Shown here: piece by piece, positions 1 through 58,728 of the stretch
How positions within the stretch are numbered: position 1 is the first letter of the stretch
How the letters are laid out: every line of letters begins with the position of its first letter
Origin: Eledone cirrhosa
Taxonomy: Eukaryota
DNA: 64,000 nucleotides
Direction: 5' to 3'
NCBI GenBank assembly: GCA_964016885.1
Contig: OZ024741.1
Coordinates: 412,610,001-412,674,000, forward strand
The notes under the pieces: generated by a model
Databases searched by the model: none
What the model was told of the DNA's origin: nothing
Seen by the model: the letters and a program-made list of their open reading frames with translations, nothing else
Translations under genes and position numbers: made by a program

Positions 1-244
1 GCAAAGCATGGTGTCCGACCCTCTACCGATACTGCCAATCCACCGCCATCACCAATAATAATAATAATAATGATAATAATAATGGAGGAGGTTATAGTTC
101 ACTTGAAGCATTGTGTAATGAGGTATAAACGTTTGAATATGTATAATAAAGCCAAAACAATGCAGGTATGGACATAGAAAAAAGAATGCAATTGCAAAAG
201 ATATTGTTGACAATTCGTCTTTTACCTTAGATTTATTTTAAATG

Positions 245-282
245 TCCTTAATTTTCGAGATAATATCTCTTCTTCAGAAGGA
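245..282 (-). ncRNA. Minimal type I hammerhead motif (left arm)
   Basis: Reverse complement reads TCCTT-CTGAAGA-a-GAGAT-att-ATCTC-GAAA-ATT-AAGGA: stem I, core, stem II and a palindromic AATT mini stem III. Confidence 0.7.
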
Positions 283-1599
283 AATAAAGGTCTCAAACCA
301 GCGTTCTAAATATCTTGCCAAGCCATGCTGACAGGAAATAGTATAGAGTATCTGTTCTATCTCTAATGTCAAAGAGTTAAATTAGGTGGATAAAGAGTAG
401 TCTCCCTTTAAAAGGGGTTTGTTTAGGGGTTTTTTTTTTTATATACATGCCTGTTTAAGTGTGTGGGAGAATGCATGAAGGTGTAAGTATGTGAGTGTGT
501 GTGTGTGAGTGTGAGAAGATAAGTCTATTCATAAATGTGGGGGATAGGTGTTATCTGGTGTTAGAGCTGGTTTTGTGTGTGTATGTGTGAGAGAGAATAA
601 GTGGAGGTGTAAGCGTGTGTGTGTGTGCGTGCGTGTGTGTGTGTGTGGGTGTGTGTAAATATGGGGCTAGAAGCCCTATCATGTTATAAATTGGGTGTTG
701 AGTTCTAGTCTATTATTGATTGGTGGTTGTGTTTTATCTATTATTAGTGCTTCCTTAATTCTAAGATTGCCGAGGTTTCTTTCCTTAGTTTCTATCCTAA
801 CTGTTATGGTTTTGTCGGTGTTTTTGCATTTAACTAGGTGTTTCTTAAATGAGGAAGCGTTAGTATTGAGGTGTTCTTTTATTCTTATGTGGAGTGGTAT
901 GGTGGTGCTACCTACGTAGAAGTTGTTGCATTTGTCACACTCTAGTCTGTGACAAAGAGTGTGACTAGAGTGTGACAAATGCAACAACTTCTACGTAGGT
1001 AGCACCACCAGACCACTCCACATAAGAATAAAAGAACACCTCAATACTAACGCTTCCTCATTTAAGAAACACCTAGTTAAATGCAAAAACACCGACAAAA
1101 CCATAACAGTTAGGATAGAAACTAAGGAAAGAAACCTCGGCAATCTTAGAATTAAGGAAGCACTAATTATAGATAAAACACAACCACCAATCAATAATAG
1201 ACTAGAACTCAACACCCAATTTATAACCTGATAGGGCTTCTAGCCCCATATTTACACCCCCCACACACACACGCTTACACCTCCACTTATTCTCTCTCAC
1301 ACATACACACACAAAACCAGTTCTAACACCAGATAACATCTATCCCCCACATTTACGAATAGACTTATCTTCTCACACTCACACACACACTCACATACTT
1401 ACACCTTCATGCATTCTCCCACACACTTAAACAGGCATGCATATAAAAAAAACCCTAAACAAACCCCTTTTAAAGGGAGACTACTCTTTATCCACCTAAT
1501 TTTAACTCTTTGACATTAGAGATAGAACAGATACTCTATACTATTTCCTGTCAGCATGGCTTGGCAAGATATTTAGAACGCTGGTTTGAGACCTTTATT

Positions 1600-1637
1600 T
1601 CCCTCTGAAGAAGAGATATTATCTCGAAAATTAAGGA
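1600..1637 (+). ncRNA. Minimal type I hammerhead motif (right arm)
   Basis: tccct-CTGAAGA-a-gagat-att-atctc-GAAA-att-aagga; one stem I mismatch relative to the left copy. Confidence 0.65.
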
Positions 1638-2123
1638 CATTTAAAATAAATCTAAGGTAAAAGACGAATTGTCAACAATATCTTTTGCAATTGCATTCTT
1701 TTTTCTATGTCCATACCGGCATTGTTTTAGCTTTATTATACATATTCAAACGTTTATAATAATAATAATTTATTGTAATTAATAATAGTTCAGCAACATT
1801 AATCGGATGGTGATTGCCAGTATGAAAAGTTGTTAACATGGGTGGAGTGACAGAACCATTTAATTTATTACCATGGCTATAGTGTTGACATTTCTGAATG
1901 TGATTATGTAGCCTAACTTTTACCATAAGGATTAAAACACATACAGGCACACAAGAGAGCAACATATGACATAGAGAAGAGAAGTACGTCTATTTTAGCT
2001 GTACAATTCACGAAGAGTGAAGTGGCTTCGATTTTTCTGCAGTTTCGTAAGTACAGTTATTTTTATTGATTATCTCCCTTTGCAAGTACTAAACCCTTTA
2101 GTTTCGATTTTATATATAATTGG

Positions 2124-15346: not shown

Positions 15347-15913
15347 ATGACGGAATCAAAGGGATTAAAAAGAACAGCACTTGCTGCTTTGATCCCAGGA
15401 ACTAAATTTGATCCGACCACATTTGAGGTTACCGGTGTCTCTGACCAAGAAGCTCCCACCGTTGTCTTCAACTTACGTGGAACAATCTTTGAAACATATC
15501 GTTCGAATTTATACCGCAAGAATCTCAGTAATTTATCCGATAGCGACTTCTTAAATCAGTTTTATCGCAAGAAATTCAACGATTATTTCTTCGACCGTGA
15601 CCCTTCACTATTTTCATCCATCTTGGAATACCAACGGACGGCCATACTACATGTGCCTGTAACTGTTTGTGGTAAATTAGCCAAACAAGAGTTAGAGTTC
15701 TGGGGAATCAACGAATGCCGCATAGAAAAATGCTGTTGGAATAACTTCGATTCGTGGAATAAAACCTACGATTCACTGAACCAACTGGAAGAAGCTCAGA
15801 AAATCACATATGTGGAATATGATCCTCAAAGAATCGAGACAGAGAAATACGGAAGAATAAAATCAATAATCTGGAATTTTCTCACTAACCATAGGTCTTC
15901 AAAAGGCGCTCAA
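15347..15913 (+). CDS. Shaw/Kv3-like voltage-gated K+ channel, coding exon 1 (T1/BTB tetramerisation domain)
   Basis: ORF MTESKG...VVFNLRGTIFETY...YFFDRDPSLFSSILEY...LHVPVTVCG...ELEFWGI...EKCCW...SSKGAQ. It carries the exact HX5CX20CC Zn motif of non-Shaker T1 domains and ends at donor CAA|GTAAGT (15914), phase 0 (567 nt). The start ATG is the best guess; an upstream exon is possible. Confidence 0.9.
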
Positions 15914-15927
15914 GTAAGTATTATTGT

Positions 15928-18859: not shown

Positions 18860-20300
18860 TCTGCTGATGCACATTACAACTAATATTCTGCTGGAATCTC
18901 AGTGTGATTTCCGTCTATATCGGGGCACTACAGATATGATCTTCACGGCGCGGCAGGTGCAGGAGAAGTGTACAGAGCAACAGCTTGATTTGTATAATTG
19001 CTTTATTGATCTCACAACGGCCTTTCACACAGCCAAAAAGCAGACCATTTGGAGTATATTCTTGAAATTTTATCATGAGAAGTTTACAGAATTTATACGT
19101 TCATTGCATGATGACATGAGAGTATGGGTCTGTGTGATTGGTGAGCTGCTATAACTTTCTCGAGACAGGCGTGATACAGGGTGACCTGCATGCTCTCACT
19201 TTGTTTGCCAACATGTTTGCTGTTGTTTTGCTAATAGCATTCACCAACAACGATGCCGCCATATATATACGTTATCGAACAACAGGAAGGCTTTTTAACA
19301 TTCGACAATTCCTCGCTACATCAAAAAAATATATCACACTGATACGTGATGACTGTGATCTTATTGGCCACACAGAAGAAGACCTTCAACTCATGATGGA
19401 TTGCTTCTCGGCAGCATGTGATGAATTTGGGCTGAGAATTAGCCTGAAAAAGACAGTGGTGATATACCAGCATGTACTCGGAAAGCCATATATTCCACTG
19501 TCTACATCTATCAAAGGGAAAATATTGAACGTTGTGGATAAGTTTGTCTACCTGTGTTGTACTCTCTCCGGCACCAGAATCATTGATGAAGAGTTGAGAT
19601 ACCAGCTGTCTAAAGCTTCCGATTTTTTGGTAAGCTGGAGAAGCACATGTGATCACAGTCAGATATCAGTGTACGCACGAAAGTCAAAGTGTATGAGGCA
19701 TATGCGCTTATAGTGATGCTCTATGGATGTGAGGCATGTACAATATACAGTGGACGTATCCAGTTTCTCGAACGTTTCCACCAAAAATGCTTGTGCTCCA
19801 TCTTAAAGATCTCACAGAGGCCTCATACACCAGACACTGATGTGCTACAGCAGGCCTTTATGCCAAGCGTCAAGAGCATGATCATGAAACAGCACCTCCG
19901 ATGGACAGGTCATATAGTATGCCTAAATGAGAGCAGAATCCACAAGCAAGTTTTGTATGGCAAATTATTGTAAGACAAATGCTTATAGTGCAAACCACAC
20001 AAGCGCTTCTAAGACTGCCTGAAAGATAACTTGAAGAAAGTCAACACCAACATGGAAACATGGGAAATATTGCAACTAATAGAGCCCAGTAGAGAAACCT
20101 CATTGCTGCCAGGGTTGAGGAATTTGAAAAGAGGCAGAGGGCCTATGCTGAAGTGAAGCGAGCAGCATAGTATATGGGGTTGTTAGTTCGCTACTAGAAC
20201 GAGTTTTGAAAGAAACTCTTACCTGTGGGTAATGTGGATGTGTACGCATGTCAAAGGCTGGGCTATTAAGCCAAAACATACGTCGTATTCATGGAAATAA
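18860..20300 (+). pseudogene. RTE/BovB-type LINE RT remnant
   Basis: ESQC.FR..RGTTDMIFTARQVQEKC...FIDLT.AF; GL.ISLKKT; LYGCE; LERFHQKCL; LRWTGH...LYGKL. Confidence 0.85.
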
Positions 20301-20637: not shown

Positions 20638-23125
20638 ATTAGATGCAAAATCTTTGGAATGTTTTACATATTTTTACTGTTCCATTAATGGATTGTACTT
20701 GTAATTTCCTAACTAGTGTTATTTCTGTTCCTGTGAACCCTAGCTTCTCAAGATTTGTATTGAGGCAGTTACTAACATACCCCAGTGCCCCAATAACCAC
20801 AGGCATAAATCTGAAGGTGTAATCAGGGTGGAGTATCTGCAGATTTCTCATCAGTTCTGCATAAATATTCTCCTTTTAGCTAATCTTTGATATTATATTG
20901 GCATCTGTTGGGCAGCTAAATTCAACTACTGTGCATGACTTCTTTTCCCTGTCCCATATCATAATATCTGGTCTGTTAATGCCTCCATTTCATTGGGGTT
21001 TTTACTGGAACATTCCACCAGTACTCTTTCATATTATGTATATGTATGTCTTCCACATTGCTGTATCTTTTAATGTGTTTATTATCGGGGCTATCTTTTT
21101 TACAGATTGCATTGTACAGTGATTTGGCCACTACATCATGCCTCATAAGTAGATAGTAGCGCAATGACATCTTTGGACAGCTGCTGATGACATGGGTGAC
21201 ATCTTCCATGTTAATTCTGCAGAGTCTGCACTTGTTATCACATTTAGGTGTTTTGCCTGCATCCCTATCTCTTTTGTGAATCAGGTATTTCATGTTGATT
21301 TCCTGTTCTTGGATTGCAAAAGCGTATCCTTCAAAGTGGGAGCCAATATAGCGGTTGTTGGTCCAAGATAGACTACTTTCCTTATCTATATTACTCTCAC
21401 TCTGGAGCTTCCTGGCAACATATCCATGCATGATTTTTTGCTGAAAAGCATGCAGTCTTTCATCCATGGATTCACTGCGATACTGCTGAGCGACATCCCT
21501 GATGTGAGTTTTTGATTATCACACAGGGAATACCTATCTTATCTGTTTCATGCAGATAGCCTTGCTTAAGAGACGGGTTCCTACACTTTGAGGTTCGTAG
21601 ATGTTGTCGGAGGGATATGATGCGACATTCAAATGTTGTCTGGACTGATGTTAGGCCTCTGCATCCCTGCCTACGTTTCAAGTAAAGGCGGTCTATGTCA
21701 CTGTTGATGTGGAAGTTTCCGGTGGTTTTTATTATTTTTTGAGTTCTAACATCAATTGCTCGGATTTCGTCTATCGTCCAATTGAATATTTCAAAAGTTG
21801 GTGTTAGGACAGGCACAGCAAACACATTATCAGCCATTGTTTTGTTTTGCGCAGAGAGTTCCGATGACCAGATCTTTCTTAATCGGGTGTAGTATTCCCT
21901 GGTTACGCGTTGCTTATTACAGATACCATTATAGGAAATGTTCTCATCTATCCCCAGGTATCTGTAGCATTCCTCATCAGATATTGATGAAACAGTTAGG
22001 CCATTGATACAAATGTTGCTAGATTGGGTTGTTGTTTTTCCGCGCTTTACAGTCATGTATGAGCATTTATCTTGGCCAAACTCCATTCCTATAACCTGTG
22101 AGAATGTTGTAACCAGGTCAAGATTTTTCTTCATCCCATCCATGTTCTTGGCATAGAGTTTCAGATCGTCCACAAAGAAATTATGGGTTAGGTTCGTATT
22201 TCTGTCCTCCTGTGAGCCAATGATGTATCCCTCACATTTCTTGAGCAGAAAGGACAAGGGGCTTAATGACAAGATGAATAGTATCACAGAGGGACTGTCT
22301 CCCTGCGATATTTTATTTTATCAGTGAAGTAGAGTCCTCCTTCTCTGTCTTTAACTTTAGGATAGTAGCCCAAGAAGAAGACAGCTTCTCTATGGCTCTG
22401 ACAATAATGTCTGGGACTTTAGCAAGTTGGAGGGCCTCTATCATCCAAGAGTGGGGAACAGAATCGAAAGCTTTCTTGTAGTCCAGCCAGACTGTAGTCA
22501 TATTCCTCCTAAGTTGTCGCACCTCCGACATCGCAGTTTTGTTGATTAGGAGTTGTTCAGCACATCCCCAAACCCTTTTCTTTCCAGGTGCTTGTTTATC
22601 TGTGATGTTATTATTTTCACAGTGATCTTGGAGGAATAGGTTGAGGCAGGCTGTATACATCTTATACATCAGGTTCTGGCATGCAATGGGTCGGTAGTTT
22701 TTTGCCAAGTGGGTGTCTTTGTTCTTGGGGACCAGTAACGTTTGTGCTAATATCAACCATTCTGGTATAAGTGTATCTCCCTTAAGAACTTGTTGGTAGA
22801 GGTCAGTAAGATACCTCCGATAGAATATTAGTTTTTTGTACCAGTAGCCGACAATCATGTCTCTTCCTGGTGTTTTCTTATCTTGGAGTTTTCCTATCAC
22901 AGTCTCAAGGGTACCCTCACTTATTTCGTATGTTTTTGTTGTAGTGTAGGAGCAAAAGTTCTTTCGGATTTCTCTTAGCCACACTGCATCTTGGTTGAAA
23001 TTCTTCTTTTCACCCCATATTTTTCTCCAAAAGGAATCTATGTCTTTCTGGGATGGGGCCTCAGTGACACTTATTATTTTGCCCTTCATATCTCTATAGA
23101 CTGATGTTTGGTTTCGTCTAAATCT
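20638..23125 (-). pseudogene. 5'-truncated R4/NeSL-type REL LINE (RT, CCHC, endonuclease)
   Basis: NYRPIAC...WLDYKKAFDSVPH; THNFFVDDLKLY; CRLC...HVISSC; PVVIGALG. A related 3' piece lies at 23278-23690. Confidence 0.9.
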
Positions 23126-24690: not shown

Positions 24691-24899
24691 GGGGGGGGGC
24701 TAGATAGATATGGACGTACACATACTATATACACATATACATATACACATACACAAGTGCATCCGGTTGGGGGCGGGAGCACTCTTGAGGTTGGTGGTGA
24801 TATGGGCTTTCATATTTTTAGCACGTGAATATGCGAGTTTCACCCTGTGTCTGTGAAAGGTAGATCTGTATTTATGCCCTATAGTGATGTGCTTGTCTA

Positions 24900-25494
24900 G
24901 TAACGCTTAGAATTTATTACCCACATTATTTCTAACTCCAAGTGAGAAGGGTGGTTTAAAGAACACTTCTTTATCCATCACACAACCTTTAGACTCTCTG
25001 ACCAACGATCGTCCACGAAGCTGGCAAGCCACGTATTGTCACTCAAGGATGCAGACGTAAAGTTCTCGACCCAATGGAAAATCCTCAGTAAATCGAGACC
25101 ATACAGAAATGGAACGAGATCCTGTAAGCTGTTCTTCAATGAAAAGTAAATATCTTACAGAAATTACATAACACTACTTGCATTAACGCGAAATCTGATG
25201 TTTTTAATCACTGCCCTCCATGCTATGAAATTTCTATTGTGTCACTGGAAGAACTTAAAATAACAAGATATTTAAACCGGATTGAACTATCACAAGGGAT
25301 CCTTCTTCAAAATTGTTCCCTCTACAATAGTTATACTCAAGTTGTCTCCCTTGTCATTCAGCTACCAACATCTGCCGCGCAGAATCCAGCTAGCTCCTAA
25401 ATATTTCCGTTCTCAGAATAACTACACAGGAGATGAAGAACACTTCCGGGGAAACGCATGTTCTCAAGTATTGTTTATTTATTTATTGTGGATG

Positions 25495-25500
<6 letters not shown>
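24900..25500 (+). pseudogene. Degenerate Penelope-like GIY-YIG C-terminus with decayed hammerhead
   Basis: WKILSKSRPYRNGTRSCKL..EK at about 25075-25146, the same motif as in ORF 47986-48471. A hammerhead-like ga-TGAAGA...GAAA-cgcatg-TT-ctc lies near 25430-25466. Confidence 0.55.
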
Positions 25501-25581
<81 letters not shown>

Positions 25582-25695
25582 TAAGAGGAATTCCAACTTT
25601 GTCTGATTTACTCGTTTTATTTACAATCCTTTAAAATATATATAATGGTATTATAATGAAATAGTATGATAGAATATTAAATTCTAAGTGTTAAT

Positions 25696-25734
25696 TGAAC
25701 AAGTACTTTCATGCTTTCGCAATCTTCAGGTTCA
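25696..25734 (-). ncRNA. Minimal type I hammerhead motif (left arm)
   Basis: Mirror image of 25812-25850. Confidence 0.85.
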
Positions 25735-25811
25735 TGATATGTGGTGACAGTCGAGTTTGCAATTTTCAACTGTCAGTTGAAAATTGCAAACTCGACTGTC
25801 ACCACATATCA

Positions 25812-25850
25812 TGAACCTGAAGATTGCGAAAGCATGAAAGTACTTGTTCA
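25812..25850 (+). ncRNA. Minimal type I hammerhead motif (right arm)
   Basis: tgaac-CTGAAGA-t-tgc-gaaa-gca-t-GAAA-gtac-TT-gttca: perfect stem I, GNRA-capped stem II, palindromic GTAC. Confidence 0.85.
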
Positions 25851-25960
25851 ATTAACACTTAGAATTTAATATTCTATCATACTATTTCATTATAATACCA
25901 TTATATATATTTTAAAGGATTGTAAATAAAACGAGTGAATCAGACAAAGTTGGAATTCCT

Positions 25961-26022
<62 letters not shown>

Positions 26023-26092
26023 CATATATATATATATGTATGTGTGTGTGTGTGTGTCTAACCCATGCTAGCGTGGAAGATAGACGTTAAAA

Positions 26093-27210: not shown

Positions 27211-28308
27211 ATTTATAGAATGACAGCAGTAGCGTTCATCCTACTGTCCGTGATATCTTTCATCACAGCTACCCACCCTGCCTGTCGGATAGAAGGCACC
27301 CGAGATTTTCTGGGACGATTACATGGAAACAGAACCATGGGTCTGGATTTACCAGTCACGGTGCCCCACCCTGCTTTGATCATAATTGATTTGATTTGTG
27401 TGGTGTTCTTCACGTGTGAGTTGACATTCAGATTCATTTCGAGTCCAAACCGGAAAACGTTTCTCACTAGTCTCCTGAATATCGTAGATTTGACGTCGTT
27501 GCTGCCTGACTACGTTGATCTGATTGTTGGCTACACCACAGACATAGAATTGGCGACTGAGGTGATCCATTACGTCCATTTCTTAAGAATAGCTCGTGCT
27601 TTCAGGATCTTTCGCTTGATTCGTTATGTACCAGGATTATGGATTCTGTTCTACACCTTCAAAGCCAGCTTCTGTGAATTGCTTCTGATGGTCGGCTTTA
27701 TGGTAGTAGGTATGATTGTGTTTGCCACTCTCATGTTTTATACCGGAGAGAGATCATTCTCCAACATTCCTATCGGGCTGTGGTGGGCGTTAATCACCAT
27801 GACAACTGTCGGTTACGGGGATATGTACCCAGTGAGTGTCTGGGGCTATGTAGTTGGTTCGCTATGCGCTGTCACTGGTCTCTTAATGGTCGGTTTCACG
27901 GTCCCTATAATCGTGAATCATTTCATCATGTATTATACACACATGCGTTCGATGAGGGCAGCCAAGAGACGCCAGAAGATAGTTCAGGAAGAAATGAAAG
28001 AACTAAGAAATTTAATTGAAGCGAAACCAAACGGAAATAATTCAATCTCAAGAGGAGGAAAAGAAATAGCAGAAAGTTCTCCAAAGCCCAAAGCTACAGT
28101 GGCCAAAACAAAAGAAGATTTAGATCAATCAGTTCGAACCATCCTGTCAAACAGTCCACCTCCTTCTTATGAAGGTATCGCCAATAGCGACAGCCATAGA
28201 CGGTTGCGGATAGGTCTGACTCAAAGCTTAACATCCCGAAAAAATGGATGGGATGTATTAGAACTTGGCAACACTTTTCATGAAGACGAAAAGCAACATT
28301 TCATCTAA
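27211..28308 (+). CDS. Shaw/Kv3-like voltage-gated K+ channel, coding exon 2 (S1-S6, pore, C-tail)
   Basis: Polypyrimidine tract plus TTCCAG acceptor at 27210, phase 0, in frame with exon 1. S4 HFLRIARAFRIFRLIRY; Shaw-type pore IPIGLWWALITMTTVGYGDMYP; stop TAA ends at 28308. Joined product is 554 aa. Confidence 0.95.
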   Translation: MYRMTAVAFILLSVISFITATHPACRIEGTRDFLGRLHGNRTMGLDLPVTVPHPALIIIDLICVVFFTCELTFRFISSPNRKTFLTSLLNIVDLTSLLPDYVDLIVGYTTDIELATEVIHYVHFLRIARAFRIFRLIRYVPGLWILFYTFKASFCELLLMVGFMVVGMIVFATLMFYTGERSFSNIPIGLWWALITMTTVGYGDMYPVSVWGYVVGSLCAVTGLLMVGFTVPIIVNHFIMYYTHMRSMRAAKRRQKIVQEEMKELRNLIEAKPNGNNSISRGGKEIAESSPKPKATVAKTKEDLDQSVRTILSNSPPPSYEGIANSDSHRRLRIGLTQSLTSRKNGWDVLELGNTFHEDEKQHFI

Positions 28309-57629: not shown

Positions 57630-58728
57630 AAAGGTAAACAGAAATAACAACACAATCAGTTCAGTATAAAAGGAACGATTGACTTTCGTCAAATCGGACC
57701 GAGGAAACAATGTTTCCATTGATCTTTCCAATTGCTAATACTATCTATCGGTTGCAATTCCAGGTAGAAGGTGCAATGTGAAATAAAGTGTCTTACTCAA
57801 GGACATAATGCATCGCGCAGTCCGGGAACAGTATATGGAAGGAATATATTAGGTTAACACTTGAAAGAGCAGGAAGAGGGTCTTAATGTTTATACATATA
57901 TACCGGCGATGTATTTGTTTTGCAAAATTTTGATATAAATTTGTGTTGAAACATATATTGTTATATTTGGGGAGCTTTATGTTGTTCTAATATTGCCAGA
58001 AAAATATAATAAAACACTGTTTGGTTTGGTTTACACTTCAGTAAATTTTTATACTTCAATCAATAATATAACTGGCAATCAATGTTTATTATTGATAGAC
58101 CAACTGTTAAATATATAAGTATATTTTCTCAAAGTTCTTTCATCACACATCTGTGATAACTTCAGTGATGATTATCGCCGTTTCCTCCTATTGAGGCAAT
58201 ATTAGGACAACAGAACCCTCCCCAAATATAACCTATATAACAATATATACATATATCATCATCATCATCATCATCATTTTACGTCCACTTTTCCCTGCTT
58301 GAAAGGGTGGGACGGGAACTGATTCTGGCTTGATTTCTACAGCTGGATGCCCTTCCTAACACCAACCTCATTTACAGTGAGTGGTGGGTGCTTTTTTCCC
58401 GTGGCGCCTACACGTCCACTTTACAGTGTGGGCTGGGTGCTTTTTTGCCGTGGTACCTTCATGACCACTATCATCTCATTTCTACAGCTGAGTGAACTGG
58501 AGCAATGTGAAATAAAGTGTCTTGCTCAAGGAAACAACACATCACCCGGTCTGAGAATTGAACTCACAACCTTTTGATTGCAAGCCCAATGCTCTAACCA
58601 CTAAGCCATGTGCCTCCATATATTTGTATATATATATATATGTATGTGTGTGTGTGAGTCCCGGATTCAATTGGGGGTAACCACAGTAAGTAAGGTACTC
58701 AGTACATTAATAGATTGTAAATAACACA

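What the first reader, a model, noticed from the sequence alone, without database searches (positions are those of the whole stretch)
25581..25965. Near-perfect twin-hammerhead palindrome inside the K+ channel intron
Seen: 192-bp arms, a 1-nt loop, one mismatch noticed, and an intact hammerhead in each arm (25696-25734 minus, 25812-25850 plus), about 1.25 kb upstream of the exon 2 acceptor. Inference: in the pre-mRNA the antisense arm is made first and would sequester the sense ribozyme in a long duplex, so the insert may neutralise its own cleavage. The duplex is also an ideal ADAR or Dicer substrate, which matters if the host is a coleoid cephalopod with heavy A-to-I editing. Near identity of the arms implies recent insertion or arm homogenisation.
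Basis: partly seen in the sequence, partly recalled or inferred. Interest (0 to 1): 0.75.

Follow-up and report, generated by a model that had tools for sequence, protein, structure and literature searches.

The report
Penelope retrotransposon hairpin marks RNA start
This mirror-image insert is a recent, two-armed stub of a Penelope-like jumping gene, one of about a thousand in the genome that fold back at the same point; that point likely marks where the element's RNA begins, and nothing found here points to a special role in the potassium-channel gene it sits in.

Summary
The palindrome is real: 192-bp arms, a 1-nt centre, one mismatch, and a minimal type I hammerhead motif per arm. It lies in a (TA)n tract 1,245 nt before exon 2 of a Kv channel gene. 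It is not unique. The arm is the pseudo-LTR/5' UTR of a Neptune-like Penelope-like element (RT plus C-terminal GIY-YIG). At least 1,014 genomic palindromes fold back at the same spot, 31 nt downstream of a TATA box in the parent. Another 24 fold near the predicted ribozyme cut, against 2 and 4 in control windows. Inverted, 5'-truncated pLTR pairs with one tail are described PLE products. The left arm is 192/192 identical to the pLTR of an ORF-linked copy, so youth explains the arm identity. Folding models agree that the hairpin would bury the ribozyme, but this holds for every such palindrome. Editing and small RNAs were not tested, and genomic copies show no A-to-G excess. The interest lies at family level: the junctions suggest a sense-RNA template running off its 5' end, and occasional in vivo cleavage. 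The scan noted this pattern before in other PLE palindromes of this genome.

The parts
25581..25772 (-). Left arm: 5'-truncated pLTR/5' UTR copy of a Neptune-like PLE (putative +2 to about +193), no tail
   Evidence: 192/192 identical to the pLTR upstream of the ORF in L053
25773..25773 (.). Fold-back junction (CAACTG-T-CAGTTG): one arm ends at putative +1, the other at +2
   Evidence: 4 of 51 sampled palindromes, this one included, have this junction form; exact junction-spanning 34- and 38-nt contigs in run X1
25774..25965 (+). Right arm: second pLTR copy, sense to the K+ channel pre-mRNA, no tail; G25937 is a rare variant
   Evidence: G at this site in 19 of 7,305 exact 28-mer matches
25812..25850 (+). 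Minimal type I hammerhead motif, palindromic loop III, predicted cut after 25845
   Evidence: motif scan, fold and dimer model
25696..25734 (-). Mirror hammerhead motif (antisense in the channel pre-mRNA)
25497..25580 (.). (TA)n target tract, left part
25966..26041 (.). (TA)n target tract, right part; a target-site duplication cannot be discerned
24880..25495 (+). Older decayed repeat (73-83% identical to other copies) with a PLE-like endonuclease C-terminus and a degenerate hammerhead; the palindrome sits in the TA tract at its end
   Evidence: PLE assignment from motifs is an inference
15347..15913 (+). Kv channel exon 1 CDS (T1/BTB_2)
   Evidence: Pfam E 7.7e-18; GT donor at 15914
27211..28308 (+). 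Kv channel exon 2 (S1-S6, Ion_trans); subfamily unresolved
   Evidence: Pfam E 6.2e-29; Kv1, Kv2 and Kv3 chains score alike, 155-165 bits; spliced join in run X4

Best explanation
The insert is a recent head-to-head pair of short pseudo-LTR copies of a Neptune-like Penelope-like retrotransposon, likely made when both ends of a cut in a (TA)n tract primed reverse transcription of the element's sense RNA and both copies ran off its predicted 5' end and were joined. Shown: the parent element, the family size, the fixed fold-back point, the TATA box 31 nt upstream of it, the one-tail rule in other copies, same-source arms and youth. Inferred: that the fold-back point is the transcription start, that the template is sense RNA, two-ended priming with end joining, and occasional cleavage by the hammerhead. 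In the channel intron it is most likely a neutral passenger. Its hairpin would hide the one sense hammerhead and could be edited like any intronic inverted repeat.
For: Parent. Copies run upstream into a GIY-YIG domain (Pfam E 3.5e-7, above cut-off) and an RT (RVT_1 E 9.4e-5, below cut-off). In ORF-linked copies the arm is followed by a ~40-nt tail and an ATG about 50 nt later. Four tandem units are spaced ~4.19 kb. Abundance: 5,114 and 7,305 exact 28-mer matches, reversed controls 0. Fixed fold point: 1,014 palindromes match the junction pattern. 19 of 30 arms taken in genome order end at parent positions 1499-1504, and the other 11 run at least 15 nt further upstream. TATAAAAG starts at 1469. 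Second, weak fold point: 24 palindromes around the predicted ribozyme cut, 15 with both ends within about 2 nt of it by my reading of the listed matches, against 2 and 4 in two equal-width control windows. Tails: 27 of 27 other full two-arm palindromes have a tail on exactly one arm. Same source: arms disagree at 27 of 252 subfamily-diagnostic cells against about 129 expected by random pairing; mean arm-arm distance 2.35%, between palindromes 4.6%. The commonest junction (26 of 51) has a 1-nt spacer and 2-bp microhomology, too tight for an intramolecular snap-back loop (inference). Literature: inverted 5'-truncated copies, tails and (TA)n bias (PMC8557442); opposite-strand dual hammerheads 100-700 bp apart (PMC4209133); RT starts at two internal sites bounding the tail (PMC11167929).
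Against: No 5'-end RNA data: the start site rests on a TATA motif, its spacing and truncation points. A pause site or processing site at +1 would look the same. No clear cap-copy signature was seen. The window copy breaks the tail rule: it is the only one of 28 with no tail on either arm. About 5 of 28 palindromes have arms that differ by linked subfamily alleles (L121; L071, L114, L137, L143), which needs two templates, template switching or later conversion. The ribozyme-cut excess is small, 8-9 of the 24 involve the AAGTACTT micro-palindrome, some may be duplicates, and the three patterns differ in conservation. The hammerhead core mutates in genomic copies at the same rate as its flanks (10 of 616 against 134 of 8,588), as expected for dead copies but no sign of function. 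No locus-specific read support was obtained.
Confidence: 0.72

Rival explanations
1. Same PLE origin, but the palindrome forms by self-priming or snap-back of one nucleic acid (an antisense RNA template as proposed for Adineta Penelopes, or one cDNA folding on itself).
For: Arms mostly share subfamily alleles and 21 further non-majority variants. PMC3846280 reads head-to-head palindromes as self-priming on an antisense template. 14 of 51 palindromes have one arm of only about 20-35 bp.
Against: Fold points sit at the predicted sense start and, less often, at the predicted sense ribozyme cut. 1-nt spacers are too small for a priming loop, and some arm pairs are mosaic.
Confidence: 0.17
2. The insert has a host function in the channel gene: it blocks its own ribozyme, recruits ADAR or Dicer, and changes channel splicing, editing or level.
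For: A ~190-bp duplex is predicted in the pre-mRNA. [quoted passage not shown]
Against: It is one of more than 1,000 like palindromes and very young. No A-to-G excess: 8 of 123 private changes. The intron is spliced in run X4, though whether that sample carries the insert is unknown. Single minimal hammerheads did not cleave in vitro. Bystander editing is likely but is not a function.
Confidence: 0.06
3. Assembly or library fold-back artefact at this locus.
For: No listed read or contig spans the insert with both unique flanks; the TA tracts break short-read contigs.
Against: The arms differ at one site and at their outer ends. Exact junction-spanning contigs exist in run X1 (not locus-specific, under 31 letters per side, possibly the assembly's own sample). 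Palindromes genome-wide show tail asymmetry and 2% arm divergence.
Confidence: 0.03
4. A non-autonomous fold-back DNA element (MITE-like) or retrozyme that moves as a fixed 385-bp unit.
For: Many copies have nearly the same length and centre.
Against: 15 junction forms occur among 51 palindromes, arm pairs follow several subfamilies, and the arm is collinear with an RT/EN element; no tandem monomer array is present here.
Confidence: 0.02

Closest known systems
EN+ Penelope-like elements, Neptune (or Nematis) clade (Craig et al. 2021, PMC8557442; passages and section 11 read)
   Same: RT with C-terminal GIY-YIG; GxKF, DKG, CX4CxxC linker and CCHH motifs; pLTR with hammerhead; inverted 5'-truncated copy; 30-40-bp tail at one end; (TA)n targets.
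   Different: Here the product is two ~190-bp arms with no ORF, and neither arm has a tail. A fixed fold-back point shared by over 1,000 copies was not in the passages read. No tree was built.
Minimal hammerheads of metazoan PLEs (Cervera & de la Pena 2014, PMC4209133; parts 1-2 of 4 read)
   Same: Type I, short helix I, palindromic loop III, predicted dimer; paired motifs on opposite strands 100-700 bp apart are reported there.
   Different: U.U instead of the conserved G10.1-C11.1 pair, a 3-bp helix II, a CUU triplet; the two motifs here are 77 nt apart.
Adineta vaga Penelopes (Arkhipova et al. 2013, PMC3846280; passages and discussion read)
   Same: Head-to-head inverted pLTRs with palindromic junctions, optional tail, TATA and Inr-like motifs in the pLTR.
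   Different: That paper favours an antisense template and leaves the question open; the junction positions here favour a sense template.
Anolis Poseidon PAc in vitro (Frangieh et al. 2024, PMC11167929; parts 1-2 of 4 read)
   Same: Two internal RT start sites bounding the tail; cuts in AT-rich DNA on both strands.
   Different: Different clade. That study found no RNA-seq reads ending at the hammerhead cut, whereas here a small set of genomic junctions sits at it.

Membership tests
EN+ Penelope-like element | RT followed by C-terminal GIY-YIG endonuclease in the parent | tested here: met
   L036: RT frame then EN; GIY-YIG above Pfam cut-off, RVT_1 E 9.4e-5 below cut-off; this copy is broken by stops and frameshifts
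EN+ Penelope-like element | [quoted passage not shown] | tested here: met
   Arm follows the EN (L002, L036) and precedes the ORF (L043, L047, L049, L053, L055, L060); four units ~4.19 kb apart on C1
EN+ Penelope-like element | Inverted 5'-truncated copy and 30-40-bp tail at one end | tested here: met
   27 of 27 other full palindromes have one tail; the window copy itself has none
EN+ Penelope-like element | Hammerhead motif in the pLTR | tested here: met
   37 of 56 sampled arms match a strict motif
Neptune/Nematis clade | CX2-5CxxC linker plus CCHH in the EN; DKG and GxKF motifs | tested here: met
   C-X4-C-X2-C linker, CxxC inside the GIY-YIG core, two downstream His, DKG, GLKF; criteria
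Neptune/Nematis clade | RT phylogeny placing it in Neptune rather than Nematis | not tested
   No reference set held
Hydra clade | DKT, CxCX5C linker, no CCHH | tested here: not met
Minimal type I hammerhead | Core CUGANGA/GAAA/UH with helices I and II and palindromic loop III | tested here: met
   (loop III duplex -6.6 kcal/mol)
Minimal type I hammerhead | G10.1-C11.1 pair | tested here: not met
   U.U in this copy and across the family
Minimal type I hammerhead | Self-cleavage | not testable with these tools
   Only indirect: 24 junctions near the predicted cut against 2 and 4 in controls
Non-LTR retrozyme | Head-to-tail array of short hammerhead monomers | tested here: not met
   Two head-to-head arms only
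ADAR or Dicer substrate | A-to-G clusters or small RNAs from the locus | not testable with these tools
   No raw RNA reads were served

The most novel reading that the evidence does not exclude
The palindromes are a fossil 5'-end map of a PLE's RNA: over 1,000 junctions record the capped start and about 15 record cleavage by a non-canonical CUU, U.U-closed hammerhead in vivo. This would show that Penelope-like elements copy sense RNA from both ends of a double-strand cut, sometimes from two different RNAs, settling the open sense-versus-antisense template question and showing that PLE hammerheads cut in cells.
Probability: 0.45. Interest if true: 0.6.

Novelty: new member of a known kind. Interest (0 to 1): 0.36.

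Why it matters
The locus itself is an ordinary young transposon stub. As a family, the fold-back points address how PLEs build inverted ends and which RNA strand they copy, which PMC3846280 and PMC8557442 both leave open. They also bear on whether PLE hammerheads cut in vivo, which PMC11167929 could not see in RNA-seq. One 5'-RACE or CAGE experiment tests the main inference. Over 1,000 near-perfect hairpins are also a likely genome-wide source of double-stranded RNA where they fall in introns (inference).

Tried and rejected
Rfam: no hammerhead match; the miRNA-family hits reflect the perfect hairpin and are below gathering scores. The G at the arm mismatch looked recurrent in the BLAST list, but that was query bias: 19 of 7,305 genome-wide. 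Fossil A-to-I signal: none in 28 palindromes (private A>G 8, T>C 13 of 123). Cap-copy signature: ambiguous. No RNA holder was listed. RAD-seq runs X21 and X22 gave 1 and 2 partial reads at the junction, which is uninformative. The summed contig depth over the arms (1e5-3e5 against 12-20 at exon 2) was not used as a copy number. The search for an empty duplicate site found only an older repeat family. Host species not determined; 'octopus' comes only from an earlier AI note. The Lunse 2016 paper on PLE hammerhead dimers could not be read (seen only as cited in PMC6765202). A search for Penelope + twin priming + inverted + retrotransposon listed 2 papers, neither about PLE mechanism by title or abstract; Penelope + octopus + hammerhead listed 4. 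These two searches do not prove absence from print. Supplements were not read.

Full report
Observation. The arms 25581-25772 and 25774-25965 pair without gaps around T25773, with one mismatch at 25609/25937; further pairing is (TA)n only. A minimal type I hammerhead motif lies at 25812-25850 (+) with its mirror at 25696-25734 (-). It has all core bases and a palindromic loop III, but U.U at 10.1-11.1 and a CUU triplet. Rfam reports no hammerhead. The host gene is a Kv channel: exon 1 CDS 15347-15913 and exon 2 from 27211; Kv1, Kv2 and Kv3 chains score alike. A contig of run X4 joins exon 1 to exon 2. The insert ends 1,245 nt before the acceptor.

What the arm is. A search of the own genome gave 52 matches, a lower bound. 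Two different 28-mers give 5,114 and 7,305 exact matches, with reversed controls at 0. Longer copies continue upstream into a GIY-YIG endonuclease and an RT. In ORF-linked copies the arm is followed by a ~40-nt tail and an ATG about 50 nt later, so the arm is the pLTR and 5' UTR of a Penelope-like element. Motifs (GLKF, DKG, C-X4-C-X2-C linker, CCHH) fit Neptune or Nematis and exclude Hydra and Poseidon by the criteria in PMC8557442 (passages and section 11). No tree was built.

The palindrome is a class. 1,014 places match a pattern for a fold-back within a few bases of the window's centre. I fetched the first 50 listed (all on C1) and added the window. There are 15 junction forms: 26 of 51 have a 1-nt spacer with 2-bp microhomology, 9 a second microhomology form, and 4 the window's form. 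31 of 51 have both arms reaching the outer end. 28 of these had at least 160 shared aligned positions and were analysed; 27 carry the tail on exactly one arm, and the window copy on neither. That symmetry is its only peculiarity. These structures are described: inverted 5'-truncated copies, a tail at one end and (TA)n bias (PMC8557442), palindromic head-to-head junctions (PMC3846280), and paired hammerheads on opposite strands (PMC4209133).

Age and source. The left arm is 192/192 identical to the pLTR of ORF-linked copy L053. The G in the right arm is rare (19 of 7,305), so it is most simply a single later change; an edited template cannot be excluded. The window copy belongs to a young subfamily whose arm pairs differ by 0-3 further substitutions. 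Arms of one palindrome disagree at 27 of 252 diagnostic cells against about 129 by chance, so they usually come from one source; about 5 of 28 are mosaic. No A-to-G excess is seen.

Where the fold-back falls. In parent coordinates (L002), TATAAAAG starts at 1469. 19 of 30 arms taken in genome order end at 1499-1504; the other 11 run further upstream (a few of the 30 are two arms of one insertion). Position 1500 is 31 nt after the start of the TATA box, the usual spacing for a start site (recalled), and about 72 nt before the predicted cut (1572|1573). A second pattern finds 24 palindromes around the cut. By my reading of the listed matches, 15 have both ends at 1571-1575 and 8-9 use the AAGTACTT micro-palindrome. 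Control windows give 2 and 4. Both peaks are features of the sense RNA. I infer that cDNAs run off sense 5' ends, mostly the capped start and rarely a ribozyme cut, and are joined. PMC11167929 shows two internal RT starts bounding the tail and cutting of both DNA strands, which fits two-ended priming; it saw no RNA-seq ends at the hammerhead cut. PMC3846280 proposed an antisense template and left it open.

Folding agrees that the hairpin would bury the sense hammerhead: stem probabilities are 0 in the full insert, 0.3-0.83 in the right arm. This is true of any head-to-head pair on either strand. Single minimal hammerheads showed no cleavage in vitro and dimers little (PMC4209133), and PAc's needed protein. 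Editing of intronic repeats is common in squid (PMC9068888 passages), so bystander editing is plausible if the host is a coleoid, which I did not test. No raw RNA reads were available.

Artefact check. Run X1 holds 34- and 38-nt contigs that cross the junction with no mismatch. They are not locus-specific, fall short of the tool's 31-letters-per-side rule, and may come from the assembly's own sample. Unequal arm ends and the family-wide pattern argue against a fold-back artefact, but no listed read or contig spans the locus.

Earlier notes. The scan has reported the same reading for other PLE palindromes in this genome; a sequence look-up with this arm found none. The two-ended run-off wording and the lead to test the ribozyme cut came from those notes, and the counts above are my own.

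Verdict. A real, young, ordinary PLE stub in a K+ channel intron; new member of a known kind. Interest 0.36, carried by the family-level junction map.

Noticed in passing
window 124-1758: A larger nested palindrome (arms 648-947/963-1262 and 124-381/1501-1758) from another PLE family, with a GIY-YIG-like frame on each arm.
   Followed up: partly
window 24880-25495: Older PLE-like 3' end with a Hydra-like endonuclease tail and a degenerate hammerhead starting with T instead of C in most other copies.
   Followed up: partly
window 46413 (-); L002 1-700 and 1770-2870: Hammerhead motif of a different repeat that forms roughly 500-600-bp tandem units around L002, retrozyme-like.
   Followed up: no
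window 2928 and 52514 (+): Two copies of a further hammerhead-like motif with long stem II and an AT-only helix III.
   Followed up: no
L067, L068, L070, L072, L074, L075, L078, L079, L112, L118, L120, L129, L133, L139: 14 of 51 palindromes have one arm that aligns for only about 20-35 bp, ending at parent 1519-1536; unexplained.
   Followed up: no
L071, L114, L137, L143, L121: Arm pairs that differ by linked alleles at parent 1533-1536 while agreeing further out (L121 differs at several sites); in the first four the tail arm has the A-type allele.
   Followed up: partly
L142 arms: Both arms share two A-to-G changes and are otherwise identical, compatible with an edited template but not significant.
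   Followed up: no
window 21472-23125 (-), 19138-19713 (+): Reverse-transcriptase fragments in the same channel intron.
   Followed up: no
window 58551-58608 (-): Weak tRNA match, probably a SINE head (inference).
   Followed up: no
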